Source: a virus
Lineage: Duplodnaviria; Caudoviricetes
Length of the DNA stretch: 64,000 bases
Strand: one strand, 5' to 3'
IMG/VR virus record: IMGVR_UViG_3300042542_003367
Location: 1,028-65,027 of that record
Shown here: positions 18,156 through 54,795 of the stretch, one piece after another
How the letters are laid out: each line of letters begins with the position of its first letter
How positions within the stretch are numbered: the stretch's first letter is position 1
Translations under genes and position numbers: made by a program
The notes under the pieces: model-generated
What the model was told of the DNA's origin: nothing
Databases searched by the model: none
The model's input: only the letters and a program-made list of their open reading frames with translations

Positions 18156-18346
18156 TTCTGCTCCCGTCTTTTTAATGTCATTTCTACCACTTCGATTTTC
18201 CGGCATAAGTGCCAGTACACACTGTTGTTACCGCCAGCGAACGCCAGAAAATCGGCACACTGCTGTTTCATATATACTAAATCGTCAGCGGTAAAATCAT
18301 CACTGTCGGTATAATAAAACAGTTTAACACCTCGTTCAGATAGCAT
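18152..18346 (-). CDS. Small hypothetical protein
   Basis: Bridges the ATPase and HD genes; ATGA overlap downstream. Confidence 0.45.
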   Translation of the reverse strand: MLSERGVKLFYYTDSDDFTADDLVYMKQQCADFLAFAGGNNSVYWHLCRKIEVVEMTLKRREQK

Positions 18347-19673
18347 CCTGCTTCTCCATATATTCTTCCTTGCTTCCTTCGTATACCTTGCCATCTTCCA
18401 TAATAACTGTGGTAAATTTATCAACACCGACGCGCTCTTCAAAGACCTGTGCGTCGTACTGCTCTACGATGTCTTTAATCGCCAGCATACTCTTCTTATC
18501 AAGGAACGCACCGTCACGGATGAGAATAACGCGCAGTGCCGGATTCTGTGCGAAGCCGATAGCTACCGCTATTTTTAACTGCAATGCAGATGATAATTCG
18601 GTGAATGGTATACCACCGACTTCCAGACAATCGCCGGACTCTGAAAATGTTACACCATCGACAGGGAACTTCGCATTGGCTATCTGCTCTTTCTTTGTGC
18701 GGTCGATTTCTGCGAGTCGCTGTGTCATCTTTTCGTGTTCCGCGAACATCACCTTGTATTCCGCTATTTTTTCAGACCGGAACGCGTTCTCGCGCACCTT
18801 AACATTCAGTTCCGCTATATCCTGCATACGCTGGCGCAGTGCGGATGTGTCAAGGTCAACAAGAACATCAACGGTTGCCTGACGAGCCTGTATATCTTTA
18901 GCAATATCCTCGCGTTCCTGCATCTGCTGGCTCAACATATCTTCCGCATTCTTTAGCTGTTCTTTCAGTACTCTGATACGTTCTGCCGTGTTAGTAATGC
19001 TATTGTTTACATGTACATGCTTCTGCTGTACATTAGCTAACTGTGTGCGTTGCAGTTCGTTATCTCTGTTCACCGCATTCAGCTTCTCCATCTCATCCAT
19101 AATTTCATCTGTGGTCATCTCCGTTGCCGGAATGCCCTGATGTTTCGGCATCGCTTCAATCTGCGCTCTCAGCTTATTCGCGGATACTGTCAGCGGTGTC
19201 CGGTTATCGTACAGACGCTTATATTCAGTGTCCAGTGCTTCAAAGTCAAGACCTAATAAAGCACGGAATAACTCCACCTGCTCTTTCGGTTTCATGCGAA
19301 TGAACTTAACAGGGTCGAACGCGAGGTCGCCGATAATGGTCGGCAGGAATTCTGACGGCAATATAGGATTACCCATACCGTCATGGATTTTCAGTTCTGT
19401 CTTTACCGCGCCCTTTTTGTCTGTGCGGATAGTGCGGGTAATGACATGACCGGATGACAGCTTAACTGTTGTGGAGCCTTTCTCTGCTTTACCATGCAAT
19501 GGCTTAACTGGCAGGTTACGGGCATCAGACAGCGTACATTCAACGGCTTTTAAGAAACTGGATTTACCAGCACCGTTCTCACCGCCCAACACTACCACAC
19601 CATCATCGCCGACTTCAACGGTCGCTTCGGACACCCGCAAAAAGTTGCTGATGTCTACCTGTGTGATTTTCAT
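18336..19673 (-). CDS. SMC/SbcC/RecF-like ABC ATPase with coiled coil
   Basis: GENGAGKSS Walker A, long coiled coil, LSSA signature, ILIRDGAFLD Walker B-like. Confidence 0.85.
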   Translation of the reverse strand: MKITQVDISNFLRVSEATVEVGDDGVVVLGGENGAGKSSFLKAVECTLSDARNLPVKPLHGKAEKGSTTVKLSSGHVITRTIRTDKKGAVKTELKIHDGMGNPILPSEFLPTIIGDLAFDPVKFIRMKPKEQVELFRALLGLDFEALDTEYKRLYDNRTPLTVSANKLRAQIEAMPKHQGIPATEMTTDEIMDEMEKLNAVNRDNELQRTQLANVQQKHVHVNNSITNTAERIRVLKEQLKNAEDMLSQQMQEREDIAKDIQARQATVDVLVDLDTSALRQRMQDIAELNVKVRENAFRSEKIAEYKVMFAEHEKMTQRLAEIDRTKKEQIANAKFPVDGVTFSESGDCLEVGGIPFTELSSALQLKIAVAIGFAQNPALRVILIRDGAFLDKKSMLAIKDIVEQYDAQVFEERVGVDKFTTVIMEDGKVYEGSKEEYMEKQDAI

Positions 19674-20143
19674 AATTTCCTCTCTTTTTGTTCTCTGACA
19701 TATAAAACTTTCTCGTGGTCTGGTATTGTATAATCAGTAACGAGAACATTAAAAATCTTACCTCTCATCTGTTCTTTATCAGTGAAAAATCTGATTTCTG
19801 AACCATTCTGTAGCCGGATATAATTATACTTGCTTATCGACATTGTTATCGTATAAGGTATATGCCCTAATAACTCTTTAAAAGCACGTTCTTTGTGGAA
19901 TACGTCTGATATTAACCATCCAGCACAGATATTATCATGATACCTGATAGCCCTGTGTAACAGATACAAATCACTGGCTAACTTTCCTTCATAATAAAAG
20001 TCTTTAAATATACATAACTGTTTGGACATCTCTGCTTTTTCATGTTCTAATATTTCGTTATCAGCAGTCCGCAGATTATACAATTTCTGCCAATCTTTAC
20101 GTGGCTTCGCTAATTCTTCTTCATAACCACTGTCAATATTCAT
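19670..20143 (-). CDS. Hypothetical protein
   Basis: Coupled ORF. Confidence 0.6.
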   Translation of the reverse strand: MNIDSGYEEELAKPRKDWQKLYNLRTADNEILEHEKAEMSKQLCIFKDFYYEGKLASDLYLLHRAIRYHDNICAGWLISDVFHKERAFKELLGHIPYTITMSISKYNYIRLQNGSEIRFFTDKEQMRGKIFNVLVTDYTIPDHEKVLYVREQKERKL

Positions 20144-20602
20144 TTAAAATACCTCTCTTTCGATACGTCCCATTGCGTCCCTGCTTGTCCAGCTTCCTCT
20201 ATGGTCGCATAGTTCCCCTGCTTCGTTGCCATCGCGCAGTCCATAAGGATACACAACATCCTCGCCACCACAGTACGGGCAGTCGACTAACTTAAACACC
20301 GTCACTGTAGTATTATCGTTCTCCAGTTCACAAGGCAGTTCCACATCCCAGATACGGCTGTCGCCTTCTGGGTACCATTGTTCTGTTCCGTTGCCTATCT
20401 GGTATCCCCACAGTTCACCAGCACCTTCTGGAATAATTATGGAGACAGGGTCGTCTATATCGCATGGCTCATAACGGACAGTTATCGTCGCTTCGTCCTG
20501 TGAGTCCTGCGTCAGATACTCTTCGATATGCGACATTAAAGTTTCAATGTTTTCAGGGGAGTATACCTTCCCCAGAAATTCATAACCGTAGATTGTTTTC
20601 AT
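20144..20602 (-). CDS. Hypothetical acidic protein with a Zn-ribbon motif
   Basis: Start at MKTIY after AAGGTGG; CPYC motif. Confidence 0.6.
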   Translation of the reverse strand: MKTIYGYEFLGKVYSPENIETLMSHIEEYLTQDSQDEATITVRYEPCDIDDPVSIIIPEGAGELWGYQIGNGTEQWYPEGDSRIWDVELPCELENDNTTVTVFKLVDCPYCGGEDVVYPYGLRDGNEAGELCDHRGSWTSRDAMGRIEREVF

Positions 20603-20632
20603 CTTACCACCTTTCACCGTTTAGTGTTTAAT

Positions 20633-20707
20633 AAAGAGAGGGTTAAAGGAATCGAACCTTTCATAAAGGTCATGAGTCTTATATGGTCACCGCGACTTCC
20701 CTCTTTT
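20633..20707 (-). tRNA. Degenerate tRNA-like element with CAT at the anticodon position (pseudo-tRNA-Met/Ile2-like)
   Basis: Perfect T-arm AAAGG-TTCGATT-CCTTT; loop CTCATGA; AGAGGG/CCCTCT acceptor-like stem; truncated D-arm GTCG-CGG-TGAC; no CCA. Confidence 0.55.
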
Positions 20708-20996
20708 GGTACTTTATTCTACTATAGGCTGTACCCGCCCGTCAGGTTTACTGCTACGTTTCCTGTGCCGCTGACCTTAGAAATATTATGTATTACCCCT
20801 CATGTCGTGTAAGCAACAACGAGGTTACAGCTTTTTCTTATTCAGCGTTTTCACTGGGACAGCTAATCGCCCAGCAAGGAACTCGGTATACACATCCCAG
20901 TGTAAAATCTTTTAGTTAGCAACTACCTCACAACTTTAGATTTACCATGTGACGGATAGGTTATCACCGCGTTTCCTGCTTACTGTATCACTACAG
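20708..20996 (-). ncRNA. Candidate large structured ncRNA A
   Basis: Starts at the predicted +1 of the 21003 promoter; no minus-strand ORF; helices CTGTA-GTGA-TACAG, CACTGGGAT/GTCCCAGTG, GCTGG-GCGA-TTAGC, GTAAATCT/AGATTTTAC, GCTGTA/TACAGC, GTCAG/CTGAC. Confidence 0.7.
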
Positions 20997-21002
20997 GACT
21001 AT

Positions 21003-21031
21003 ATTATACTAAATTAAATACACTTTGTCAA
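21003..21031 (-). promoter_or_regulatory. Sigma70-type promoter driving the ncRNA
   Basis: TTGACA-17bp-TATAAT. Confidence 0.85.
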
Positions 21032-21050
21032 TACATTTTAAGGATTATTT

Positions 21051-21308
21051 TTAATTATCTGCTAAATCTTCACTCAACAACTCTCGCACATATTGCTTCT
21101 TTATCCATAAATAATAAAACAACTGCACAAGGCATACTGTGGCGTATGCACCAATGGCGATATATAAAATAGGTGGCAACCTCTCTTCCAATATAACGTG
21201 CGGGATATGCGACATAATGAGAATAGCCAACATAAATTTATACTCATTTATCAACGCTGTACGTGCATCCCAAAATTTCTTCTCTAACTTTTGCAATTTC
21301 TCGTTCAC
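21051..21308 (-). CDS. Small membrane protein
   Basis: Two hydrophobic segments; GTGA overlap. Confidence 0.6.
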   Translation of the reverse strand: MNEKLQKLEKKFWDARTALINEYKFMLAILIMSHIPHVILEERLPPILYIAIGAYATVCLVQLFYYLWIKKQYVRELLSEDLADN

Positions 21309-21937
21309 ACTTTCTCTCCCTTACATAAAATCTCGAAGCGGTCGCCCACTATTAAAACAGTCCCGTCCGTAAACATGAATGCCTGTTGAATGTTGCCACC
21401 TACTCTGCTAATCAACGAGCAATCCTCAGCACCAACGATAAAATCTGGATGTTCACCGCCGTAGCAATCTGCTGTCTTGTGGAAACGCGCATAGTCAATG
21501 TATAAGACATTATTCAAACACGCTACCCGCACCAGATTGTCCGTCCTTGTGTAGCGGTCAAAAGTGTACTCAGCTACTATATCCGAACATTGCTCATAAT
21601 CGCGCCAGCCCACATGTTGGGGAGTCCATTCACAGAATGGCATCTTACTCAGTGCCTGTGTCGGTGTGTACGCCTTAAATAGGGTATTGTCTTGCTCTAT
21701 ATGCAAGCTAACCGTACCGCACCCGACCAGACTTTTTAACCATCGGCGCAGGAACTTGACGTGCATATAAGTATGCAATAAAGCTAATCTCTCGCGCCCG
21801 TTGGACTTCAACATCGGCAGTTTGTACATGCGATTATCGTTGAATACTACGAGGTCATTGTCAATGACACCCATGTAAAAGTCATCATCTAAAAAGCATA
21901 CCGCCTGATAAAATTTCTTTTTATTAACTGTTATCAT
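21305..21937 (-). CDS. Hypothetical protein
   Basis: Coupled 210-aa ORF. Confidence 0.65.
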   Translation of the reverse strand: MITVNKKKFYQAVCFLDDDFYMGVIDNDLVVFNDNRMYKLPMLKSNGRERLALLHTYMHVKFLRRWLKSLVGCGTVSLHIEQDNTLFKAYTPTQALSKMPFCEWTPQHVGWRDYEQCSDIVAEYTFDRYTRTDNLVRVACLNNVLYIDYARFHKTADCYGGEHPDFIVGAEDCSLISRVGGNIQQAFMFTDGTVLIVGDRFEILCKGEKV

Positions 21938-31614: not shown

Positions 31615-31639
31615 TACCTTTTACAAACTATTTTTAAAA

Positions 31640-31882: not shown

Positions 31883-31951
31883 TATACCCCCCCTTTCAGT
31901 CTGTGCAGACTGTAAAAACCATTTAAAATGTGTAAACCTTATTACCCCTAT

Positions 31952-31980
31952 ATAATACCATAATCAATACAGTTTGTCAA
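31952..31980 (-). promoter_or_regulatory. Sigma70-type promoter
   Basis: TTGACA-17bp-TATTAT; hairpin at 31897-31912. Confidence 0.75.
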
Positions 31981-32481
31981 TAGCACAATATACCCACACG
32001 GCAGAAGTATTATATATAAGATTAAAAGAATACTATACTAAACTGCTAAAAATTAGTTAAACCAGATTAATACATATTTAATTAATACTTAACGTTTAGT
32101 TTAATTAATGAAATGATGAAAAATTAACTAAATTTTAACTAATTTTATTAATCGTTTAGTTTTTTAATGGTAAAAAAAATCATGCCGATTTTTAGAGAGT
32201 CTACCCTAAACATTAGAATTGACGATTTATAGATACCAGATACAACCAAAATACGCCGGATTTTAACCGAAATTGACCAAAAACACACAGACACACCAAT
32301 ACCCACACACAAACAAATAACAGACAACGGGGCATGAGTTACAATACACCCCAGAAATACACCAAAAACCGCGATTTTTTATCGATATAGTTTTATCGAT
32401 TAAAATAGTTTTGTGATACAAACGTTGCAATATTGATACTGTGGGCTGTGGGGCTGTGATTCTACTCTCAATGGCGTATAG

Positions 32482-33050
32482 TAAAAACAGTATTAAGTTG
32501 TTAAAAGTTTCTACCTGTCTAATATAAACATTATTGAAAAAGGGTGAAAAGCAGGGAAAATGGTGACGATTAGGGGCTATTTTATTAGAATTTTGAGTAC
32601 AACAATTTACAATACATTGCAACTGTGGGGCTTTGGTTACTATATATTACTTTGAAATACTGGAATTTACTGTCTAACGTTCACCTCTTCTACATTTGAG
32701 CTTAAAAAGATTTTTTTTTTGAATATTTTTTTATATTTTGATGATTCCATGATTCACTGATACTACCCAAATAATAATAATCATAATATTTTATTAGAAT
32801 CGTCTTTTTTTTCAAAATAAAAGTTTTTTAATCTCAAATGTAGACGATATGAATCTCCCGCTTTATTTTCCAGTAAATCCACATGCAATGTGGCACAGTA
32901 TTGTAAATAGTTGTAAATTTGTCCTATATAACCAGACTAAAACATGTGGAAATTTCCGCTTAAATTGACACATATTCAATTCTCCAACAATAGTGCAAAT
33001 ATTAGACACACTATAAATTCTCAATTTTGCCTAAAGTTCTATTGTTTTTA
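32482..33050. repeat. Long imperfect inverted repeat centred near 32760
   Basis: tacaacaatttacaatac/gtattgtaaatagttgta; tctacatttgagcttaaaaa/tttttaatctcaaatgtaga; tactggaa/ttccagta; tgtctaatat/atattagaca. Confidence 0.75.
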
Positions 33051-33394
33051 TTAGACACTTTATAATAAAATGGGTAGACGACCAAAATGGCACAATAATA
33101 CTATAAAACAGGCTATTTTTAGCACATTTAGCCACATTTTGGCAGTAATATGCTATTAATGTATATATAAGTAATATTGTTACACAATGCAATTTTGCTA
33201 TTTTTCGCTCAGACCCACAGATTTTACGTTTTTTGTATCGTTCCAACAGTAATAAAAAATGACTGTTTTGAAGGGTATTTTACGATTTTATCGTAATATT
33301 CAGTGCTTTTTTATAGTAATATTGCCGTTTTTCATAGTTTTATAGTTTATTTATTAGATAGTGAAATTGGGCTTTTAGTCTGTGTGATAGTGTA

Positions 33395-33424
33395 TTGACA
33401 GATATTGGTGATATGTTGTATAAT
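33395..33424 (+). promoter_or_regulatory. Sigma70-type promoter, rightward
   Basis: GTATTGACA-18bp-TATAAT; leader hairpin CGGC-ATAA-GCCG before GAAGGGG. Confidence 0.8.
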
Positions 33425-33465
33425 GGATGCAGAAATTAAACGGCATAAGCCGGAAGGGGTACACT

Positions 33466-34032
33466 ATGAACGAATTACAATTTACCATCAAGCGCGGAGA
33501 TGTTGAGAAGCGTATCAACGCAAAGTCAGTAAGTGGTAGTTATAATCCGGGCGAACTCTTTATTGAGTTATCACCCGCACAAGTGAACAATATCAACAAA
33601 CATTTTAAAATTGACAGTGACACACTGGTGATTACCTGCCACAATGATATATGTTTTATAAAGGAAATATCTACCCGTCGAAATGGTAATTTAAGTATGG
33701 TAATACAGGTTAAACCTGCAACCGCGCACGAAAGATGGCAAGCACAACAAAAGGCAAAAGAATTAAGATTAAAGAGAGCAGAAGCAAGCATACAGGCGCG
33801 CGCAGAAGCTGAAGCACAGACACAGAGAGACACAGAAGCACAGGCGCAGGAAATTACACTGCAATTCCAAGCCGTAACTAAAATGGGTAGTATGGTCAAT
33901 GCGTCTTTTAAAATTGATATTAATTGCAGTATGGCACAAGTGGAAAATCTGCTGAGAGACTCGGGATACATCCAATATCGCGTAATAGGTATGGATAAAA
34001 TGATTAAATTAACAGGTAACATAGACAAGTAA
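33466..34032 (+). CDS. Hypothetical protein
   Basis: Start at MNELQ after GAAGGGG. Confidence 0.7.
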   Translation: MNELQFTIKRGDVEKRINAKSVSGSYNPGELFIELSPAQVNNINKHFKIDSDTLVITCHNDICFIKEISTRRNGNLSMVIQVKPATAHERWQAQQKAKELRLKRAEASIQARAEAEAQTQRDTEAQAQEITLQFQAVTKMGSMVNASFKIDINCSMAQVENLLRDSGYIQYRVIGMDKMIKLTGNIDK

Positions 34033-39386: not shown

Positions 39387-40624
39387 TGTCAGAAGTATTG
39401 AAACAATTAGAAGCCGCTTTGCTGGCTAACAAGGAAAAGACTGATAAAGTTCTCACCGAAAGTGCTAATCGCGCTGAAAAGAGCGATGCTGAAATGGCTG
39501 AAATCAAAGCCGAGATTAAGGCACTACAGGAAGAGAACTCCAAGCTGACGGCGAAACTCGGTGAAACAGATACTGCTCGTAAAGAGTATGAACTGAAAAT
39601 GAACCGGATTGAAGCCAGTTCTGCGAAACGGGAAGAAATGCAGACCAAGTCACTCGGTGAAAAGTGGGTTGAGTCCGATATGTGGGCAGAAGTTAAGGCC
39701 AAGGGCGGCACAGTCGTTCGCACAGACGACCTCATGTTAGGCGACCTGTACGAATTGAAAACACTGTCCAATCCGGCGACTCCAGACCCGACAATTCCTT
39801 TCTACAACCCGTACAATCGCGGCTTCATCATGCCGCAGATGCGCGACCTTATCATGCGCGACCTGTTGAATGTAGTTCCGACCACATCCAACAACATCGA
39901 ATATGAAGAAGAGTCCGTGTTCACCAACAACGCGGCTGTAGTTGCGGAATCCGGTTTGAAACCGCAGAGCAACATTTCATTCACCAGCAAGAATGCGACC
40001 ATTCGCACTATTGCGCACTGGATACCTTTCACCAACCAGTTCTTGGATGACAATCCTCGTATGATGAGTTATGTAAATAACCGCATGATGCGCGGACTGC
40101 AAGAAAAAGAAGAATACGAGATGATGTACGGTACTGATACCGACACTTCACTTCGTGGTATCTTCGGCGCACCGGGTGTTCAGACCTACGCATGGTCGGA
40201 AGGCGATGCTGGCGACACACGTATGGACGCAGTTTTGATGGCGATGTTGAAAGTAACCAACGCTCTGTATAAAGCAGATGGTTTGGTTATCAACCCGAAC
40301 GACTACGCCAAAATCAAAAAGGCGAAAAACGACAACGGCGATTACCTGTATCCTTCATTGGTTACTGGCGAAAATCCGCGCATCTGGGGTCTTACTCCGG
40401 TTGAGTCTCTGTCAATTAACGAAGGCGAGTTCCTTGTGGGCAACTTCGGTATGGCGGCTGAACTATATAATAGAATGAGTGCCAGTATGCGTATAACGGA
40501 TGGTTACATGGACTTCGTAGTTCGCAACAAGAAACTGCTTCTGGTTGAAAACAGAATACAACTAGTATTACTGCGACCGAGTGCATTCGTTACCGCTGAA
40601 TGGGATGAAGCACCGGGTTCGTAA
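39386..40624 (+). CDS. HK97-fold major capsid protein
   Basis: Coiled-coil delta domain, VAESGLKP, TIAHWIP, IWGLTPV, LRPSAFV. Confidence 0.93.
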   Translation: MSEVLKQLEAALLANKEKTDKVLTESANRAEKSDAEMAEIKAEIKALQEENSKLTAKLGETDTARKEYELKMNRIEASSAKREEMQTKSLGEKWVESDMWAEVKAKGGTVVRTDDLMLGDLYELKTLSNPATPDPTIPFYNPYNRGFIMPQMRDLIMRDLLNVVPTTSNNIEYEEESVFTNNAAVVAESGLKPQSNISFTSKNATIRTIAHWIPFTNQFLDDNPRMMSYVNNRMMRGLQEKEEYEMMYGTDTDTSLRGIFGAPGVQTYAWSEGDAGDTRMDAVLMAMLKVTNALYKADGLVINPNDYAKIKKAKNDNGDYLYPSLVTGENPRIWGLTPVESLSINEGEFLVGNFGMAAELYNRMSASMRITDGYMDFVVRNKKLLLVENRIQLVLLRPSAFVTAEWDEAPGS

Positions 40625-40649
40625 CCTGAATTGAGAGTAAAATCTCTAT

Positions 40650-40687
40650 AATCCCCGTAGGTTGAAGTTCTACGGGGATTTTTTTTT
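40650..40687 (+). terminator. Intrinsic terminator
   Basis: AATCCCCGTAG/CTACGGGGATT stem plus T-run. Confidence 0.9.
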
Positions 40688-40808
40688 GTAACAATTTTAC
40701 AATATTGTTGAAATATATGTCACAGATGTTGACTTTGTCAATAAAAAAAAAGTGAAATATTTTCCACTTAATATTGTATTTATAGGTTAAAAACTATATA
40801 ATATATTC

Positions 40809-47211: not shown

Positions 47212-50200
47212 ATGAATAATAACGAAGATAGAACTGCGGCAGATGTCACGGCTGGCTTTAATGCTATGGCTGGTGGTTTTGCGATAGCATCGAATATTCG
47301 TGACCAAGAGATGGTTGCAAAACAGGGATATGTTTCGTTTCAAAAGTCTATATCTGCTAACGCTTTTAAGAAGAAACACCCTGATTGGAAAGAAGTTAAA
47401 ACAGGGAATGAATTTCGATTTTATCCGCCTAATTCTGCGCCAACTCAGCGTCCCCCTTACTCTCATCAATGGCAGGGCAAGGATGTTGACAAACAGCAAC
47501 TGGATATAATTAATCGCCGTTCGTTGCAGTTGCATGCAGGGAAGTCTAATGTTGACCCATCTGACACGAATACTCATGCAAGATATGACAGTTTATTAAA
47601 TCGTTTAGACATGCGTGGTGCGGCTATTGAGGTGCGTAGTGGAAATGTAATAGAGCGTCCTGAATTTGAGGGTTCTACTTTATCAGGTTTTACCGAAAGT
47701 AATCGCCAGCAGTTCCCGAAGCCAGCAATTAACGAAAATCTAAAAGGTTTTTTTAGTCCTATTAAATCATCTTTTGATAGACGTAAGAAATTGCCCTTGC
47801 CGAAGGTGCTTGACCCTTCTCGTATATCATGGCAAACGGGTGTGACGCAGAATGATTCAAATAATGTCGATAGGAGTGTTTTAAGAAACACAGATAGTGA
47901 ACATAATCAAAAACGCCGCAGAAATCTTCAAGAACGACGAGAACGTGTACAGGCGCGTTGGAATGAACGTAAAGAAAGAATAAAAAATACACCATCTGTT
48001 GATAATGATACTCCGACACCTGTAACAAAAGTACCAAAGCAACGCACACCCAAAAAGCCGAAAAATGACGATACTGTCCACATGCGCGTAAAAGAAGGTG
48101 GCGGATTATCACTGGCAGTTCAGGGAGTCGTCTTGTGTGGTGCGCCTAATAAACCTCGTTCGGTGAAATATGGTTATATAGAGAATGTTACTTGTCCGAA
48201 GTGCAAGAGTATTTACGAAAAGGAAAATGCTCCTGCTAATAACTTATTTACGAGTAGTACTCCTGCGCTGGAAAATCCGAATGAGAACGTTCCGGTATTA
48301 AATAATCAGACACCTGTTATACCACCAACCAGCAGTAATGTGGGTGGTTCAGGTTCCAGCGGCGGCTCCGGTGGTAGCACTGGTGGTTCAGGCGGTTCTA
48401 CAGGTTCCAGCGGCGGCTCCGGCGGTGGTAGCAGAAAATCTAAAAAGCCGAAAATTATCCATTGTATTAATGACGAACGCGGTGTGCGGTGGTGCGGTCA
48501 GCCTATAGGTGCTGATGATGTGACAGAGATAGCGAAAGCCACCTGTTTGAATTGTCAACGCGCATACGCTAAACACGCGTCGCCATCTCCACGCAAGAGT
48601 AGTTCAGGTGCGCCAGAGGGCGAAGAGCGGATGTCTTATGAAGAAGCCGTATCATACCTGCACAATTCTGCGGCGGATGTCACGTTAAGCAATAAGGGTG
48701 TCAACCCACCTAACGTGGCTAACGTAGGCAAAAATAAGAAGTATGCAGGTCATCGTGGTCTGCCTGACGCACTGACAGCCGAAGCGTCGTTGACATCGTT
48801 CGTTGAAGGTGATTTAGAAAAGATAACAAGGCGCACATATACTGCTGATAAGACAGATATGAAAAAGACTCGTGCGTCAGCGTTGAACGTCGCCCGCGAC
48901 CTGCCAGCGTTAAAGGCGCAAGCCGCTAAGGGCAAAGTTCTCATTGGCAATCTTAAAAAAGAAATGCTGTCTGCTGATGATGAAACAAAGCGGGCGTTAG
49001 AAGCCGTTGTCACTAAGAAGCAGGAAGAACTGGAGTTAGTAAACAACGAAATTATACGTTTAACTGCGGCAGAGAAGGATATAAAAAACGTTTACAAGTC
49101 TGTGGGTACTTCACAGTATCAGAAGCGTATTAATCAAATATCGAATGCAAAGTATGCGGCAGACCCACAGAAGAAGATGGACGCGCTCGTTAAAGAACGC
49201 GATGCGTTGCAGAAAAAGATGCGCACAATGGACGTGTCCGACCCTGCATATCAGTCTGTCCAGAAAGGTGTGGGCTTATATAACACGCAAATAAAAGAAG
49301 CTGAACGTCAGGTGATGATAAAGAAGGCATCTACCGATGTGTCTGCTTTGCATAAAGATATTTCTTACTCTGCTATAACACAAGATAGCAAGTTAGATTT
49401 GACACAAAAACGTATCAAAGAATTTCAGGATTTAAAAGATACAGCACCGAAGGGTGATAAGATGATTGCTTATTACACGAAGGTGTTGCAACTGCTGAAA
49501 GAAGAAGAAAAGCAGTTACAGAAAAATATTAAGTTGGATGAGCAACAGGCGCGAGTTACTATAAAGCAAGTGGCAACTCAAACTCGTCAGGAGACTATCC
49601 CTGAATTAATGCGCAAAGCTAAAGGGGATGCGTTAAAAGAAATCAGTTTGTTGCAAATGGAAATAGCTAAAGAACAAGCTATCGTTGATAATAAAGATTC
49701 TACCTCACGGATGAAGGCTATCGCGGAAGCGAAGGTAAAAGAGTATAAAAACGCTCTTGCCAAGTTAGGCGACCAGACGGTATTACGGGAAGTCAGTAGA
49801 CTACAGGGTATAGCGTCCGGCGATGGCAAACAACATCGCTTAGGTAGTTTGGAAGCTAACCAACAGGCGCAGGCGACATATTTAGCTTTAATATCTGAGT
49901 CAGCGAAATTAAAAGATAGAACAGATTTAGACCCGAAACAGAAAGCGTCTATATCTCACGCTTTGCGAGGATTAGAAGTAGGTGCGTTCTCCGTTATGCG
50001 CGGTACATCTGCTGAATATCTTAATCAGGCGAAGATTAATATGGAGACAGCTAAGGCGAGTAGCCTTGGCGAGATGAAAAAGTTCTTAATGACCTTACGA
50101 CAGGATATGTCTGTTACCCGTGGTCAAATACAGAGTATGCTCGGCAAGCCGGGGGAAAATTTATTACGGTCTCAATTAGCGCAACAGCGTCAGATGGAAC

Positions 50201-53200
50201 GCGAAGCGCGGGATTCAATACGTGAAAATATTTATCGTAGAGTATCCGGCAGAGATAAGGCAGATTTTGATGTTCCGTCTATGGGACGTGCAAAAGCTAA
50301 TCTTTATGCTGAGAATATATCTGAATTCGCTAAAATAGCGGGTCAGGATATACAGGATAGATTCGGCAAGACGTTAGGTATCGTTAATGGTATATCGAAT
50401 GGACTGCTGATGGCGGCGGGCGCGACAGCAATGCTTGCAAGTGAAGCTGTTAAAGCGTCGGCAAAGTTTGAAGCTACCAGAGTAACAATGGGTGCGATAT
50501 TGAAAGATACTGGCGCGGCTAACCAATTAGTCAGCGACATTATGGCGTACTCATTGGAAACCCCCTTCCAGTTTGACCAGTTAGCGGACATGTCGCGGCA
50601 GTTATTAGCATTCGGTTATACAGCGAAAGAAACCATGCCGATGTTAAAGTCTATCGTAGATGCGGTTACTGCTGTCGGTGGAGACCAAGGGAAGCTGAGC
50701 CGTATTATACAGGACTTCGGTAAAATGCGTTCGTCCGGCGTTATTAATGCAAGAGAAATGCTCCAGTTAACGCAAGCAGGTCTGCCAGCGTGGGAGATTC
50801 TGGCGAATAATGAAGAAATGGGATATGGCGGAAATCAGAAGAAGTTGCGCGATGATATGCGTAACCGAAAGGTAGATTCTCGTCAGGCTATCCCTGCTTT
50901 AATTCAGGGATTTCAAGAGCGTTATGGCGGTGTAGCGGAAGAGAGAATGCAGACTACACAGGGTAAGATGGAGAACTTCCAAGAGCGCATAACGTTTGCG
51001 TTTGTAAAATTAGGTGAAGCCTTATTACCGTTCGCTAATGGTTTATTAGAAATTGGCACATGGTTGCTTAATCTTTCTAATTCCCCGGGATTGCGGGCGA
51101 TAGCAACGATAACAGCTAACTTCCTCTTCTGGGGTGGTGCTGTAGGCGGTATTATAGGTAAATTAACGGCGATTGTCCCTGCTTTAGCGGCTATGACTAA
51201 AGGTATCAGTGCTGGTATTATAGCAACGGCTGAAATGGCTGGAATGACCATGACTGAGACAGCGGTAATGCAAGCCAGTATAGCAACTAAAACAGAAGCG
51301 GCATTGATAGAGCAGGGCATACGAAATCAAAAAACGTTGTCTATTATTACTAATCAGGCGTTAACCGCTACTCAGATGGAAGCGGCACTGGTAGAAGCTG
51401 GTCTGACAGCAGAAACAGCGAAAGAGACAGTGGCGACAGCGTTAAATACTCGTGCCACGATAGCAAACACATTGGCGGAAGAGCAGTCTAATATAGCTAA
51501 AGAAAAAGCCATATTGATGCAAAAGAGATTGGCGGCGGCTAACGTGTGGATATTAGCTTTGACTGTTATTGTTACTGCGCTTGTGCTGGTTTGGGATAAA
51601 TGGTTAAAGCAGGATACCAGTGCTGAAAAATCACAGAAGATGCAAAAGAACGCGGAAGAAACAGCGAAGTCTTTTGAGAAACTTAATAATGCTATAGGTA
51701 AAACTATTCGTGATATAGATAATTTAGAAAAGGCACAAACGAAAAATGCTGATTCCACAGCGTTGCTTGCCAGCAGATATAATGATTTGCGGGCGATGTT
51801 ACGCAGTGCCGGAGCAGAAGCTGATAAATTAGCAGATGCCAAAACACCAGAAGCACTCATTAAATTCGCTCGTGAATTTATGTCTTTAAATATTGAAAAA
51901 CAAATAAAGGCATTAGCAGATGCTAAAATGTACGCTGACAGGTCTAAATTAGAAACATCTCTTACTGAGTATAAAGATAATCCTTCTGATATAGGTCGTA
52001 AGATAGTTCAAATATCTAATCGGTCGCTACAACCGTGGTGGACTCGTAAACAGCGTATGGAAGCGGCATCCAATGATATAATGGATACACCATTATTTAA
52101 GAAAATAGTACAAGACAATATGAAGCAGGGTTTAAGTCGTAAGGAAGCCACGAATGAAGCATTTAAGCCATTCGCTAAATATATGGCAGAGTATGAAAGT
52201 GCCACGGGTACTTATGACGAGGTATTGCAGAAGCGGGCTTTGTTACAAGCAGAAATGTATCGCCAGCAGTTAGAAGCGGCAAAAGAAATGGGCATGTCTG
52301 CCGCTGATATGAGTAGTTTATCTACAGCGCAGTCTACTCTGTGGTCTAACGCTGTCGCTTTTGCACAAACCAGTGCTGATGCTTCACAAACTAAACCTAC
52401 GCCATACGAAGCAGGTGCAGTTAAAGACGAGTACATGTCTACACAAGGCACAAAGAGCAACTTCCAAGATATTCTTGGGAAGGCACAAGAGACGAATAAT
52501 AAGTTAAAGACCCTGTATGATATTCGTCGTCAGATGAAAGAAGGTACTTATACTCCGCCGAAGCGATTTGACAAAGATACTGTCGAAGGTCAGATGTGGT
52601 CTAACATCGGTGAAGGTGCGGAAGAAGGTACATTCCAGAAAGCTATCGAAACTGAAATATCTAATTTAGAAACGAAGAAATCTAATATTGACAAAGCATT
52701 AACGGATGCCGCAAACAATATGAATGCCGCATTAGAACGGGATGTAAACGCACAGGTCTCTAATGTTCAGTTAGTGAATATACCGGAGATAGTGCGCAAG
52801 GCAACCACCGAACTGGCGAAGCAGAAACAGGAACTGGTGGCGTTGCAGGGTCAATATAAATTCGATGCACAGGGTAATAAAATAGTGGACATCGGTTTGG
52901 ACGCACAGGTCAAAGTAGTCGAAGCGCAGATAAAGAATAATGAACTGCTGATTAATAAAATGAACGAAGCCCGAAATGCGAAGTTAATGTCGGTCAGCGC
53001 GGATAAAGCAGTAGCGTTCTTTATTAACGAGACGGCTCGTGAGACCGAATTCGGCACGAAAGAATTCGATAAATACGCTTCTGTAGCTGAAAAGATTAAG
53101 TCCCACATGGACGCATTAAAGAATGCAGGGAAGGGAGCGACCGGAGAAATAGCGAAGTTGCGGGAAGAATTCACGAAGTACACTCGCTTATCCGAAGCGT

Positions 53201-54795
53201 TTCAGGCTGATAAAAATGTTAAGAAAGTCGAGCGCGAAACGACTGCGGCAGTTAAGGCGCAGGGGTATATGTCTGTTGATAATGCAACAGGTATTTACAA
53301 CGCGAAGATAGACAAAGTGCAGAAAGACCTGCTGGCGGGGAATATCACTGCTGACGTAGCCAGAGAGCAGATAAAGGTCTTGAATACTGCCCGCGCAAGA
53401 GTAGCGGAAGCTGGTAAACTACAGGAAGATATAATCGCCATGTGGAGAGCCAATGACGACGCTCTTCGTTCTTACGCCGCAGAAGATGCCACTGGTATCC
53501 ATACATCGGCTGTGGATAAAGCACGTGCGCAAGTAGAAGCGTTCAATAAGATACTGCAAAATATGGCGATGCAGGGCAAGGCTAACACCGCAGAATTTAA
53601 ACGCATTCGTGCTGAGCGCGATAAAGCACTGGCTACCGTAGTCGGCAGAACGACTGAAAAAGAAAAGATAGACTTGCAGTTTGAAGAAAACAAACAGCGT
53701 ATGACTGACACAGAAAAAGTTGCATCCGCTCAGTTAAGTGTGTGGACAGCTAATCAGTCACCGACCAATACTATTGATGACCGTCTGGCGAAAAAGAAAG
53801 CGCAGAAAGACTTGGAACTGGCAATGGCAGAAATGTCTAACAACCAGAAAATAATGCAGAAGCGCAAAGAAATGCAGAAGCAGATAGAGGACTTACGCAA
53901 GGGCGGAGCGGCAGAGGACGATATTAATAGAGTTAAGGAAGCGTTTGATATATGGAAAGCTAAGGAAGATGAGAAGCTGGCGTATCTGCGTATGACTAAA
54001 GAGCGACAGTTCATGGTAGAAGAAGCGTATGCCAATCGCATGAAACGACTGCGCGAGCAGGATTCTATCGACGCACTGGCGCGTATATTCGGTATGTCAG
54101 CGGAACAGACGAAGTGGATGAAACGCGGGCGCGAGTTGGGCGACGTTACTCCACAGGATAGACAGATGGCTCGTATCTTTGGTAAGAAACCAGAGGGCGA
54201 AGGCATGGAGACGTTATTTGGGAAACGACTACCGAACTTGATGCCGATAGCGCAAGCTACGCAGGTGCAGGGCATGATGAGTAATTATAGCTTTAAAGGT
54301 TATCAACCAGAAGGCTATGACCGCTATAACAGCAATGTGGATGTGTCCGGAGTGTTCAATGGTAAGCAGGTTAATAATCCACAAGTTAGTGTACTGATTA
54401 AGTCTATAGATTCGCTTACTGATGCGATTACAGGCTCAGTTTCACTTTCACTTCCGGGATTACCGAATAATTTCGGTGCGCCTGTTACTGAGTTAGTGCC
54501 AACTCCGGGTTTGCCACACCCTGATTCTTTAATGGGTCAGGCAGTTAAGATGGCATCCAGTGGTCAGCAGTTGAACTCTATGTCATCTGTGATTAATGAA
54601 GTAATTAGTGGTTCGCCTACCGCTTTAGGAAATAAACAGTCTACCATTGTACGCGGGTTGCCAGCTTCTCCATTAACAGGTAAGTCCGGCACACGCGGTG
54701 GTCACGATATTAAGTTAGTGTTGTCTGGATTGGGTGAGCGTCTGTTTAAGGTGCTGGAGTCAATCGACAACCCGGGCGGCACAGGTAGATACTAA
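47212..54795 (+). CDS. Tape measure protein (2527 aa) with atypical N-terminal region
   Basis: Tape-measure domain FEATRV...ETPFQFDQL..RQLLAFG...QT.QG...NFQE near 50460-51030; hydrophobic segments; long helical repeats. Confidence 0.88.
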   Translation: MNNNEDRTAADVTAGFNAMAGGFAIASNIRDQEMVAKQGYVSFQKSISANAFKKKHPDWKEVKTGNEFRFYPPNSAPTQRPPYSHQWQGKDVDKQQLDIINRRSLQLHAGKSNVDPSDTNTHARYDSLLNRLDMRGAAIEVRSGNVIERPEFEGSTLSGFTESNRQQFPKPAINENLKGFFSPIKSSFDRRKKLPLPKVLDPSRISWQTGVTQNDSNNVDRSVLRNTDSEHNQKRRRNLQERRERVQARWNERKERIKNTPSVDNDTPTPVTKVPKQRTPKKPKNDDTVHMRVKEGGGLSLAVQGVVLCGAPNKPRSVKYGYIENVTCPKCKSIYEKENAPANNLFTSSTPALENPNENVPVLNNQTPVIPPTSSNVGGSGSSGGSGGSTGGSGGSTGSSGGSGGGSRKSKKPKIIHCINDERGVRWCGQPIGADDVTEIAKATCLNCQRAYAKHASPSPRKSSSGAPEGEERMSYEEAVSYLHNSAADVTLSNKGVNPPNVANVGKNKKYAGHRGLPDALTAEASLTSFVEGDLEKITRRTYTADKTDMKKTRASALNVARDLPALKAQAAKGKVLIGNLKKEMLSADDETKRALEAVVTKKQEELELVNNEIIRLTAAEKDIKNVYKSVGTSQYQKRINQISNAKYAADPQKKMDALVKERDALQKKMRTMDVSDPAYQSVQKGVGLYNTQIKEAERQVMIKKASTDVSALHKDISYSAITQDSKLDLTQKRIKEFQDLKDTAPKGDKMIAYYTKVLQLLKEEEKQLQKNIKLDEQQARVTIKQVATQTRQETIPELMRKAKGDALKEISLLQMEIAKEQAIVDNKDSTSRMKAIAEAKVKEYKNALAKLGDQTVLREVSRLQGIASGDGKQHRLGSLEANQQAQATYLALISESAKLKDRTDLDPKQKASISHALRGLEVGAFSVMRGTSAEYLNQAKINMETAKASSLGEMKKFLMTLRQDMSVTRGQIQSMLGKPGENLLRSQLAQQRQMEREARDSIRENIYRRVSGRDKADFDVPSMGRAKANLYAENISEFAKIAGQDIQDRFGKTLGIVNGISNGLLMAAGATAMLASEAVKASAKFEATRVTMGAILKDTGAANQLVSDIMAYSLETPFQFDQLADMSRQLLAFGYTAKETMPMLKSIVDAVTAVGGDQGKLSRIIQDFGKMRSSGVINAREMLQLTQAGLPAWEILANNEEMGYGGNQKKLRDDMRNRKVDSRQAIPALIQGFQERYGGVAEERMQTTQGKMENFQERITFAFVKLGEALLPFANGLLEIGTWLLNLSNSPGLRAIATITANFLFWGGAVGGIIGKLTAIVPALAAMTKGISAGIIATAEMAGMTMTETAVMQASIATKTEAALIEQGIRNQKTLSIITNQALTATQMEAALVEAGLTAETAKETVATALNTRATIANTLAEEQSNIAKEKAILMQKRLAAANVWILALTVIVTALVLVWDKWLKQDTSAEKSQKMQKNAEETAKSFEKLNNAIGKTIRDIDNLEKAQTKNADSTALLASRYNDLRAMLRSAGAEADKLADAKTPEALIKFAREFMSLNIEKQIKALADAKMYADRSKLETSLTEYKDNPSDIGRKIVQISNRSLQPWWTRKQRMEAASNDIMDTPLFKKIVQDNMKQGLSRKEATNEAFKPFAKYMAEYESATGTYDEVLQKRALLQAEMYRQQLEAAKEMGMSAADMSSLSTAQSTLWSNAVAFAQTSADASQTKPTPYEAGAVKDEYMSTQGTKSNFQDILGKAQETNNKLKTLYDIRRQMKEGTYTPPKRFDKDTVEGQMWSNIGEGAEEGTFQKAIETEISNLETKKSNIDKALTDAANNMNAALERDVNAQVSNVQLVNIPEIVRKATTELAKQKQELVALQGQYKFDAQGNKIVDIGLDAQVKVVEAQIKNNELLINKMNEARNAKLMSVSADKAVAFFINETARETEFGTKEFDKYASVAEKIKSHMDALKNAGKGATGEIAKLREEFTKYTRLSEAFQADKNVKKVERETTAAVKAQGYMSVDNATGIYNAKIDKVQKDLLAGNITADVAREQIKVLNTARARVAEAGKLQEDIIAMWRANDDALRSYAAEDATGIHTSAVDKARAQVEAFNKILQNMAMQGKANTAEFKRIRAERDKALATVVGRTTEKEKIDLQFEENKQRMTDTEKVASAQLSVWTANQSPTNTIDDRLAKKKAQKDLELAMAEMSNNQKIMQKRKEMQKQIEDLRKGGAAEDDINRVKEAFDIWKAKEDEKLAYLRMTKERQFMVEEAYANRMKRLREQDSIDALARIFGMSAEQTKWMKRGRELGDVTPQDRQMARIFGKKPEGEGMETLFGKRLPNLMPIAQATQVQGMMSNYSFKGYQPEGYDRYNSNVDVSGVFNGKQVNNPQVSVLIKSIDSLTDAITGSVSLSLPGLPNNFGAPVTELVPTPGLPHPDSLMGQAVKMASSGQQLNSMSSVINEVISGSPTALGNKQSTIVRGLPASPLTGKSGTRGGHDIKLVLSGLGERLFKVLESIDNPGGTGRY

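What the first reader, a model, noticed from the sequence alone, without database searches (positions are those of the whole stretch)
20708..20996. Promoter-driven ~290-nt GNRA-rich structured RNA: best candidate for an undescribed system
Seen: a perfect promoter (21003-21031) fires into ~390 nt with no sense ORF in an otherwise densely packed arm. The predicted transcript opens with CUGUA-GUGA-UACAG. It contains a 9-bp helix CACUGGGAU/GUCCCAGUG enclosing a GCGA-capped hairpin, GUAAAUCU/AGAUUUUAC enclosing UAGUU/AACUA, and a 3' domain closed by GCUGUA/UACAGC with CCUC/GAGG and GUCAG/CUGAC. A mini-motif occurs twice with a compensatory change: GC-A-G-GAAA-C-GC and AC-A-G-GAAA-C-GU. Four GNRA loops and three AGUA segments suggest tertiary packing. 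Known: GOLLD and ROOL are large phage-associated RNAs often near tRNAs. I cannot assign this RNA to those, to raiA, or to a ribozyme or riboswitch class from memory.
Basis: partly seen in the sequence, partly recalled or inferred. Interest (0 to 1): 0.85.

Follow-up and report, generated by a model that had tools for sequence, protein, structure and literature searches.

The report
Long untranslated phage leader, tRNA-like end
A strong phage promoter does fire into about 400 bases without a gene, but most of that stretch is swapped for other sequence in a near-identical phage and folds no better than ordinary coding sequence, so it looks like a variable leader carrying a tRNA-derived relic rather than a proven new structured RNA.

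Summary
The window is a 65-kb lake-water phage with terminal repeats. A 12-of-12 sigma-70 promoter (21031-21003, minus strand) is one of seven near-identical promoter boxes. Six of them reach a ribosome site and start codon 20-53 nt after the -10; this one needs 401 nt. No sense ORF lies in between.

The 289 nt give z = -1.63, and 8 of 28 other windows of the same strand do as well. Rfam gives nothing, and no homologue was found, so covariation could not be tested.

Two results change the picture:
- In a roughly 95%-identical relative, window 20628-20909 (282 nt, two thirds of the proposed RNA) is replaced by 219 other bases.
It has a canonical T arm and an acceptor-like stem, and it fails every tRNA test.

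Best reading (0.45): a transcribed leader made of a conserved 5' part and a strain-variable cassette ending in a tRNA-derived relic. A free-standing accessory RNA released at the tRNA-like module remains possible (0.3).

The parts
21000..21040 (-). Promoter box: -35 TTGACA 21031-21026, 17-nt spacer, -10 TATAAT 21008-21003. One of 7 similar boxes on this strand.
20983..20996 (-). Hairpin CUGUA-GUGA-UACAG at the predicted 5' end of the transcript. The start site is inferred from the -10 and is not measured.
   Evidence: tetraloop present in the MFE
20910..20996 (-). 5' part of the leader that is kept in the relative in run X5 (4 differences over 20910-21058). It holds mini-motif 1 (GCAGGAAACGC, 20979-20969) and a 14-codon GTG...TAG reading frame (20967-20923) behind an AGGAAA ribosome-site-like stretch.
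   Evidence: (record 13)
20628..20909 (-). Strain-variable cassette of 282 nt, replaced by 219 other letters in a contig of run X5. A contig of run X3 also turns unlike beyond 20627. G+C is 0.433, the same as the genome (0.436).
   Evidence: (tables 5, 7, 8)
20852..20902 (-). Hairpin with the 9-bp stem CACUGGGAU/GUCCCAGUG. It is the only sub-region with a notable z-score (20850-20950: -2.42).
20728..20831 (-).
20637..20704 (-). tRNA-like element. It has an acceptor-like stem AGAGGG/CCCUCU, a T arm AAAGG-UUCGAUU-CCUUU (20661-20645) and a CUCAUGA loop with CAU (20676-20670). There is no proper D arm, the anticodon stem is imperfect and no CCA is encoded. The stem is extended by AAUAAAG (20718-20712) with CUUUAUU (20636-20630).
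   Evidence: rejected by ARAGORN
20144..20614 (-). First gene after the leader: ribosome site AAAGGUGG 20614-20607, ATG 20602, 152 aa. It is an orphan protein with a CPYC motif. Differences in the relatives fall mostly every third base, so it is a real gene.

Best explanation
The stretch is the transcribed, non-coding leader of the next operon of the phage's replication arm, not a single conserved structured RNA. A host-type sigma-70 promoter, one of seven copies, starts transcription near 20996. No terminator lies before the next gene, so the RNA runs on into the 152-aa orphan gene (ATG 20602), the next gene and the SbcC-like ATPase gene.

The leader has two parts of different history. The first is an 87-nt 5' part (20996-20910) that is kept in relatives; it begins with a GUGA-capped hairpin that may protect the 5' end. 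The second is a 282-nt cassette (20909-20628) that is exchanged for unrelated sequence in a near-identical phage, so it is an accessory segment in a recombination-prone spot.

The cassette ends in a tRNA-derived element. Its T arm and acceptor-like stem are intact, but its D arm and anticodon arm are degenerate. It is either a relic of a phage tRNA gene or, at most, a handle for the enzymes that process tRNA ends.

Shown: the promoter match and its repeats, the lack of an ORF, the ordinary folding energy, the replacement in relatives, and the tRNA-like features. Inferred: transcription, read-through, and any processing or stabilising role.
For: Promoter and its six sister boxes with short leaders. 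No terminator-like site on the minus strand between 19500 and 22500. No sense ORF. No family and no homologue for the antisense ORF. Folding no better than other windows of the same strand: z -1.63 against a background of -1.24 +/- 1.0, with 8 of 28 as low.

Replacement of 20628-20909 by 219 other letters in one 592-nt contig of run X5. Its flanks match at 10 differences in 221 and 4 in 149. A contig of run X3 breaks at the same place, 20627, and a contig of run X4 carries the window's allele unchanged over 20700-20947.

tRNA-like element: global alignment to the tRNA-Sec model at 17.1 bits, and a T arm matched by the tRNA model RF00005. Its 21-nt T-arm-plus-acceptor string recurs exactly in a real tRNA-His (L087), which also shares ATATAAGA at the anticodon-stem position.
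Against: The T arm is canonical at every position and the acceptor-like stem is lengthened by 7 further pairs, while the rest of the cloverleaf is degenerate. That uneven decay is what selection on a T-arm/acceptor minihelix would give, not neutral decay (inference). GNRA-capped hairpins are mildly enriched, with 10 of 294 background windows reaching the same count, and one hairpin domain has z -2.42. Among seven promoters only this one carries a long leader, so the stretch may be kept for a reason. The 219 letters of the other allele could not be read, so a very diverged version of the same RNA is not excluded. The tRNA-likeness itself is weak by score: 11.9 and 17.1 bits against cut-offs of 29 and 47, and a coding stretch elsewhere in the genome scores 13.9 bits.
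Confidence: 0.45

Rival explanations
1. It is a free-standing, strain-specific accessory RNA. The promoter makes a precursor, and RNase P and/or the tRNA 3'-end enzymes cut at the tRNA-like module. That releases a stable RNA of about 290-360 nt, and perhaps a small tRNA-like RNA, from the downstream mRNA. The product acts in trans, for example as a decoy for a host factor or defence nuclease that recognises tRNA.
For: Its own perfect promoter with a uniquely long untranslated stretch. A preserved T arm and an extended acceptor-like stem next to degenerate D and anticodon arms. Mild excess of GNRA-capped hairpins and one hairpin domain at z -2.42. Presence or absence between near-identical phages is typical of accessory functions. 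Precedent from passages I read: bacterial and phage YrlA RNAs carry a tRNA-like module, and the M. smegmatis YrlA is cut by RNase P and receives CCA (PMC4201824). From search listings and abstract starts only: phage tRNAs can neutralise tRNA-cutting defences (PMC11464382, PMC11555353).
Against: The overall fold is not more stable than coding windows. No homologue, so no covariation. The tRNA models score far below their cut-offs and ARAGORN rejects the element even at lowered thresholds. Two A-A mismatches sit where the acceptor stem should stack on the T stem (read from the sequence). The helices of the predicted fold join the conserved and the replaceable parts, which does not fit a modular RNA.
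Confidence: 0.3
2. It is a cis-acting regulatory or stabilising leader, such as a ligand- or protein-responsive 5' UTR or a decay barrier, for the orphan genes downstream.
For: The position directly between a promoter and an operon with no terminator. A hairpin at the predicted 5' end. A 14-codon reading frame with a ribosome-site-like stretch at 20967-20923 that could act as a leader peptide.
Against: No Rfam riboswitch or leader family at E up to 10. No terminator or anti-terminator pair, and I saw no sequence complementary to the ribosome site AAAGGUGG in the leader (reading). Two thirds of the leader is dispensable in relatives that keep the same downstream gene.
Confidence: 0.1
3. It is the wreck of a small protein gene. 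The 5' part keeps the start of a gene (GTG at 20967), and its body was lost or overwritten when the cassette came in. The other allele may still encode it.
For: The six sister promoters all drive a gene within 20-53 nt. Here an AGGAAA-N6-GTG lies about 30 nt from the predicted start but the frame stops after 14 codons. The other allele has a different 219 nt at this place.
Against: The letters of the other allele were not available, so no ORF is shown there. No protein-like frame remains in the cassette. The antisense ORF has no family and no homologue.
Confidence: 0.1

Closest known systems
Phage tRNA genes and tRNA pseudogenes (Rfam tRNA, RF00005)
   Same: A canonical T arm (G53, UUCGAUU loop, C61, by the standard tRNA numbering as I recall it), an acceptor-like stem, and a 7-nt CUCAUGA loop in the anticodon position. 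The 21-nt 3' part is identical to that of a real tRNA-His.
   Different: No D arm, an imperfect anticodon stem, two A-A mismatches in the acceptor stem, and no CCA. It scores 11.9 bits (local) against a 29-bit cut-off and is rejected by ARAGORN.
YrlA / bacterial Y RNAs with a tRNA-like module (PMC4201824, passages read)
   Same: A non-coding RNA, also found in phages, that combines a tRNA-like T arm with other stems. One member is cut by RNase P and receives CCA.
   Different: According to the passages read, YrlA lies next to a Ro60 (TROVE) gene and its tRNA-like 'acceptor' is an internal stem-loop. This phage has no TROVE match at E up to 1, the acceptor-like stem here is formed by the two ends of the element, and no Rfam family matched.
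   Same: A phage or lake-water setting and an ORF-free stretch (search listing; abstract starts only).
   Different: I recall these families being in Rfam but did not check it here; on that basis they would have been among the 4227 families scanned. Nothing matched at the gathering thresholds in the whole window, nor at E up to 10 in the region. This stretch is smaller and not unusually stable.
Hyperplastic regions of T4-type phages, where repeated promoter/stem-loop cassettes (PeSLs) mediate replacement of small segments (PMC2839356, PMC4122927; search listing and abstract starts only)
   Same: Repeated near-identical early-type promoters along one arm, and replacement of a short segment just downstream of one of them between phages that are otherwise about 95% identical.
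   Different: This is not a T4-type phage. The break points lie 87 nt downstream of the start site and 25 nt before the next start codon, not at the promoter box. No terminator stem-loop is paired with the promoter.

Membership tests
Any Rfam 15 family (includes known riboswitches, ribozymes and large ornate RNAs) | Score at or above the family's gathering threshold | tested here: not met
   0 matches in the whole window at gathering thresholds. In 20550-21060 at E up to 10 there were only tRNA-Sec at 17.1 bits (cut-off 47) and snoRNA ACA59 at 14.6 bits (cut-off 43).
tRNA (RF00005) | Covariance-model score of 29 bits or more over the whole cloverleaf | tested here: not met
   11.9 bits, model positions 47-63 only (the T arm), E 0.73 for the genome. 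A coding stretch elsewhere scores 13.9 bits.
tRNA (RF00005) | Accepted by a tRNA gene finder | tested here: not met
   ARAGORN found 0 genes in the window and 0 in the region with lowered thresholds, intron mode and the mitochondrial mode.
tRNA (RF00005) | Canonical T arm: 5-bp stem and a UUCRANN loop closed by G-C | tested here: met
   AAAGG-UUCGAUU-CCUUU at 20661-20645. The consensus itself is recalled.
tRNA (RF00005) | 7-bp acceptor stem, D arm and 5-bp anticodon stem | tested here: not met
   Acceptor: 5-6 pairs followed by two A-A mismatches. D region: at most a 3-bp stem. Anticodon stem: 3-4 of 5 pairs (reading).
tmRNA | Detected by ARAGORN with a tag peptide | tested here: not met
   (option -m): none.
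YrlA / bacterial Y RNA | Encoded next to a Ro60 (TROVE) gene | tested here: not met
   PF05731 has no match at E up to 1 in the 65-kb record; the control rings in 2 of 14 genomes.
Structured non-coding RNA in general | Fold more stable than shuffles and than the genomic background | tested here: not met
   z -1.63 (13 of 200 shuffles as good), and 8 of 28 background windows are as low or lower.
Structured non-coding RNA in general | Covariation in homologues | not testable with these tools
   No homologue was found.
Structured non-coding RNA in general | A discrete transcript | not testable with these tools
   No RNA run was listed as a holder. This says nothing about expression.

The most novel reading that the evidence does not exclude
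This would be a strain-specific phage accessory RNA of a kind not yet described. A structured RNA of about 300 nt would be fused to a minimal tRNA mimic (T arm plus acceptor helix, with a CAU loop that may be 8 nt long). It would have its own early promoter, be released by the host's tRNA-processing enzymes, and serve as a decoy or inhibitor against a tRNA-directed host defence or toxin. Its presence or absence between near-identical lake phages would reflect an arms race.
Probability: 0.1. Interest if true: 0.65.

Novelty: new member of a known kind. Interest (0 to 1): 0.3.

Why it matters
If the best reading holds, this is an ordinary feature of phage genome plasticity: a replaceable accessory segment behind a repeated promoter, carrying a tRNA-derived relic. 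It is worth a line in an annotation, and it shows that a list of hand-found helices and GNRA loops can look convincing while the fold is no more stable than coding sequence. If the rival holds, it would add a tRNA-mimic-tagged RNA to the few known phage non-coding RNAs, and it would connect to current work on phage tRNAs that counter tRNA-cutting defences. The element is small, has a defined promoter and a natural 'minus' allele, so it would be easy to test once the phage or its host is in culture.

Tried and rejected
Homologue searches that found nothing:
- blastn (distant mode) of 20600-21050 against 50,697 phage records.
- Relatives of the downstream 152/157-aa gene in viral contigs, in metagenome contigs and in the 5.8-billion-protein collection, which returned only itself.
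- Relatives of the SbcC-like ATPase, the 843-aa helicase-like protein and the upstream 210-aa gene in viral contigs by single protein.
- The ATPase alignment A1 gave 80 loci, all at 37% identity or less. nhmmer gave no hit against them, and blastn gave only two 17-19-nt chance matches at E 3.5. I scanned 40 of the 80 loci for tRNAs: 2 loci had tRNA genes, and only L029 had them upstream of the ATPase. The other 40 were not scanned.
- Exact patterns from the ribosome-site region and from the 5' part of the leader in viral contigs: 0 and 0.
- The pattern for the two arms of the hairpin gave 85 loci, of which 38 carry one unrelated 58-nt sequence. None resembles the leader beyond 15 nt.
- The T-arm-plus-acceptor pattern gave 0 in genome contigs, with and without two free positions, so no host tRNA or attachment-site origin could be named.

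Sequencing runs:
- No RNA holder was listed. This is no evidence on expression.
X1, possibly the source sample, was left out on purpose.
- Parts of the stretch without cover in X2-X5 say nothing.

Ideas rejected:
- tmRNA and permuted tmRNA.
- YrlA.
- Riboswitch, ribozyme or intron.
- A coding gene on either strand.
- Foreign composition of the cassette (G+C 0.433 against 0.436).
- The downstream orphan protein gave no lead to an RNA-related function: Pfam and PHROGs gave 0 families, and the atlas scores were at most 0.85 with TM below 0.5.

Not done:
- No covariance model was built, because a model from a single sequence would add little over nhmmer.
- Supplementary files of papers were not consulted.

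Full report
WHAT THE WINDOW IS. The window is bases 1028-65027 of a 65,027-base virus record with direct terminal repeats. Near-identical DNA is held by lake-water metagenome runs from several studies. Genes run on the minus strand up to about 32 kb and on the plus strand after that. The minus-strand arm carries replication genes, and many of its genes are orphans:
- helicases, a primase/polymerase, a topoisomerase-like protein, a MazG-like protein, a methyltransferase, and an SbcC-like ATPase at 18336-19673;
- the genes around the finding have no Pfam or PHROG family.

No integrase was seen among the 26 different proteins scanned; the plus-strand arm was not scanned. The nearest deposited phage has 31% identity in the ATPase. 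The nearest protein anywhere has 47%.

THE OBSERVATION. On the minus strand, TTGACA (21031-21026), a 17-nt spacer and TATAAT (21008-21003) match the sigma-70 consensus 12 of 12. The promoter is one of seven copies of a ~41-nt box, all on the minus strand of this arm. They start at 31623, 26613, 21040, 15629, 14187, 8385 and 5468, with 4-10 mismatches to this copy (three of them also appear). For the other six, the first start codon preceded by a ribosome site, on an ORF of at least 25 aa, lies 20-53 nt after the -10. For this one it lies 401 nt after, at ATG 20602. All three sense frames in between are closed. This is the largest true gap in the window when ORFs of 40 aa or more on the main strand are laid out. 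So the anatomy is real: a good promoter firing into about 395 nt without a gene, which is exceptional for this phage.

IS IT A STRUCTURED RNA?
- The 289 nt of the finding fold to -79.6 kcal/mol, z = -1.63, and 13 of 200 dinucleotide shuffles do as well.
- The 381 nt reaching to the gene give z = -1.27.
- Native sequence of this phage generally folds a little better than its shuffles, so I ran a control. In 28 other 289-nt windows of the same strand, spaced 1 kb apart and mostly coding, the mean z is -1.24 (sd 1.0). Eight of the 28 are at or below -1.63; my script gave -1.85 for the target.
- Of seven sub-regions only 20850-20950 stands out, the two neighbouring hairpins, with z = -2.42 (5 of 200). 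This is uncorrected for seven tries. The tRNA-like part, the 5' part and the '3' domain' are unremarkable.
- The region has 3 GNRA loops closed by at least 3 pairs against a background mean of 0.62. Ten of 294 windows reach 3, which is a mild excess.
- CAGGAAACG occurs twice here and nowhere else in the window. By my arithmetic, some 9-mer repeating within 400 nt is expected about 0.3 times.
- Rfam gives nothing at curated thresholds in the whole window. At E up to 10 in the region it gives only two noise-level hits.

Thermodynamics therefore gives no support, and motif counts give weak support.

HOMOLOGUES. None could be found, so covariation, the test that would decide, could not be run. The searches are listed under Tried and rejected. 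This phage is isolated in the collections that can be read here.

WHAT NEAR-IDENTICAL PHAGES SHOW. Contigs of four lake-water runs were laid on 20100-21900 at 80% likeness or more.
- Run X4 has the window's allele unchanged over 20700-20947.
- Run X5 has one 592-nt contig that matches 20407-20627 (10 differences) and 20910-21058 (4 differences). Between these it carries 219 letters that do not match the 282 nt of the window.
- A contig of run X3 matches up to the same base, 20627, and then runs on unlike.

Counted by run, two (X3, X5) show another allele with the same 3' break point, one (X4) shows this allele, and X2 does not cover the place.

In the flanking genes the differences of X5 fall mostly at every third base (for example 20237, 20246, 20255, 20264, 20270, 20279, 20285). 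These are true relatives with genes under selection.

The replaced segment (20628-20909) is two thirds of the proposed RNA. It contains the 3' strand of GUAAAUCU/AGAUUUUAC, the 9-bp hairpin, the whole '3' domain', the second mini-motif and the tRNA-like element. The long-range pairs of the MFE that tie the 5' part to the rest span the break too. X5 also has two adjacent changes (20940, 20941) in the retained strand of that helix. Its partner strand is gone from 20909 on, so these cannot be read as compensatory. The letters of the other allele were not shown, so I cannot say what it encodes.

THE tRNA-LIKE ELEMENT. It has these features:
- an acceptor-like stem AGAGGG/CCCUCU;
- a T arm AAAGG-UUCGAUU-CCUUU that fits the tRNA consensus at every position (the consensus is recalled);
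- a CUCAUGA loop in the place of the anticodon loop;
- a further 7-bp extension, AAUAAAG/CUUUAUU.

The tRNA-Sec model aligns it end to end at 17.1 bits (cut-off 47). The general tRNA model matches only the T arm, at 11.9 bits (cut-off 29), and a coding stretch elsewhere in the phage reaches 13.9 bits. ARAGORN rejects it in every mode tried.

Its 21-nt T-arm-plus-acceptor string has no exact match in one genome for each of 185,579 species. It has one match in the metagenome collection, L087: a real tRNA-His in a very A+T-rich 1,445-nt contig. That tRNA also shares ATATAAGA at the 5' side of the anticodon stem.

I read the element as derived from a tRNA gene. It is not a working tRNA by any test here. 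The decay is uneven, with the T arm and outer stem intact and the D and anticodon arms degenerate. That is the main point in favour of a retained role as a handle for tRNA-end enzymes.

MECHANISM, COMMITTED. The most likely reading (0.45) is that the promoter drives the mRNA of the next operon. No terminator-like site lies on this strand between 19500 and 22500. The 395 nt are its leader, composed of a conserved 5' part with a terminal hairpin and a replaceable accessory cassette that ends in a tRNA relic.

The chief rival (0.3) is that the cassette is itself the point: an accessory RNA cut free at the tRNA-like module, in the manner of tRNA-like modules in YrlA RNAs, one of which is cut by RNase P and gets CCA (PMC4201824, passages read). 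That family is excluded as such, because this phage has no Ro60 gene, no Rfam family matched and the topology differs. A cis-regulatory leader (0.1) and the wreck of a small gene (0.1) follow.

COMPARISON AND NOVELTY.
- It is not a member of any Rfam family.
- It resembles phage tRNA genes or pseudogenes in one 68-nt part.
- It resembles the replaceable segments behind repeated promoters described for T4-type phages (PMC2839356 and PMC4122927; only the search listing and abstract starts were seen).

I file it as a new member of a known kind, with low to moderate interest. The bold reading, a tRNA-mimic-tagged accessory RNA, stays open at about 0.1.

Only contigs, not reads, were available for the runs. 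No RNA data were available.

Noticed in passing
window minus strand, boxes starting at 31623, 26613, 21040, 15629, 14187, 8385, 5468: Seven copies of a ~41-nt promoter box (TTGACA, 17 nt, TATAAT, with conserved flanks and spacer) are spread along the replication arm. They probably define the early or middle transcription units. Contigs in runs X2 and X3 that match only 21002-21040 are other copies of this box.
   Followed up: partly
window 40651-40688 (+): A strong terminator-like hairpin (CCCCGUAG...CUACGGGG followed by a run of 9 T) lies right after the 412-aa ORF, ahead of an A+T-rich 120-nt spacer and the 699-aa ORF. A 13.9-bit partial tRNA-model hit at 40595-40647 lies in coding sequence and is noise.
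   Followed up: partly
window 31883-33426: The switch region between the two divergent arms is low in G+C (0.32 over 32001-34000) and has several ORF-poor gaps of 180-380 nt. This may be the origin or early control region.
   Followed up: no
L087:358-430 (-): This 1,445-nt, extremely A+T-rich metagenome contig carries a tRNA-His whose T arm and 3' acceptor strand are identical over 24 nt to the phage's tRNA-like element. By its composition it may be organellar.
   Followed up: partly
window 20144-20602 (-): The first gene after the leader is a 152-aa orphan with a CPYC motif followed by CDH, a possible zinc ribbon. It has no family and no homologue beyond its own cluster, but the third-base pattern of differences in relatives shows it is under selection.
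   Followed up: partly
L089, L093, L095, L101 and others (38 of the 85 loci): One conserved 58-nt sequence bounded by CACTGGGA...TCCCAGTG recurs in many virus contigs. It is unrelated to the finding.
   Followed up: no
window 47212-54795 (+): A single ORF of 2,527 aa lies in the structural arm. It was not examined.
   Followed up: no
L029:2900-3275 (+): One distant relative (32% identity in the ATPase) has tRNA-Met and tRNA-Trp genes about 3 kb upstream of its ATPase, roughly where this phage has the tRNA-like element. It was the only such case among the 40 loci scanned.
   Followed up: no
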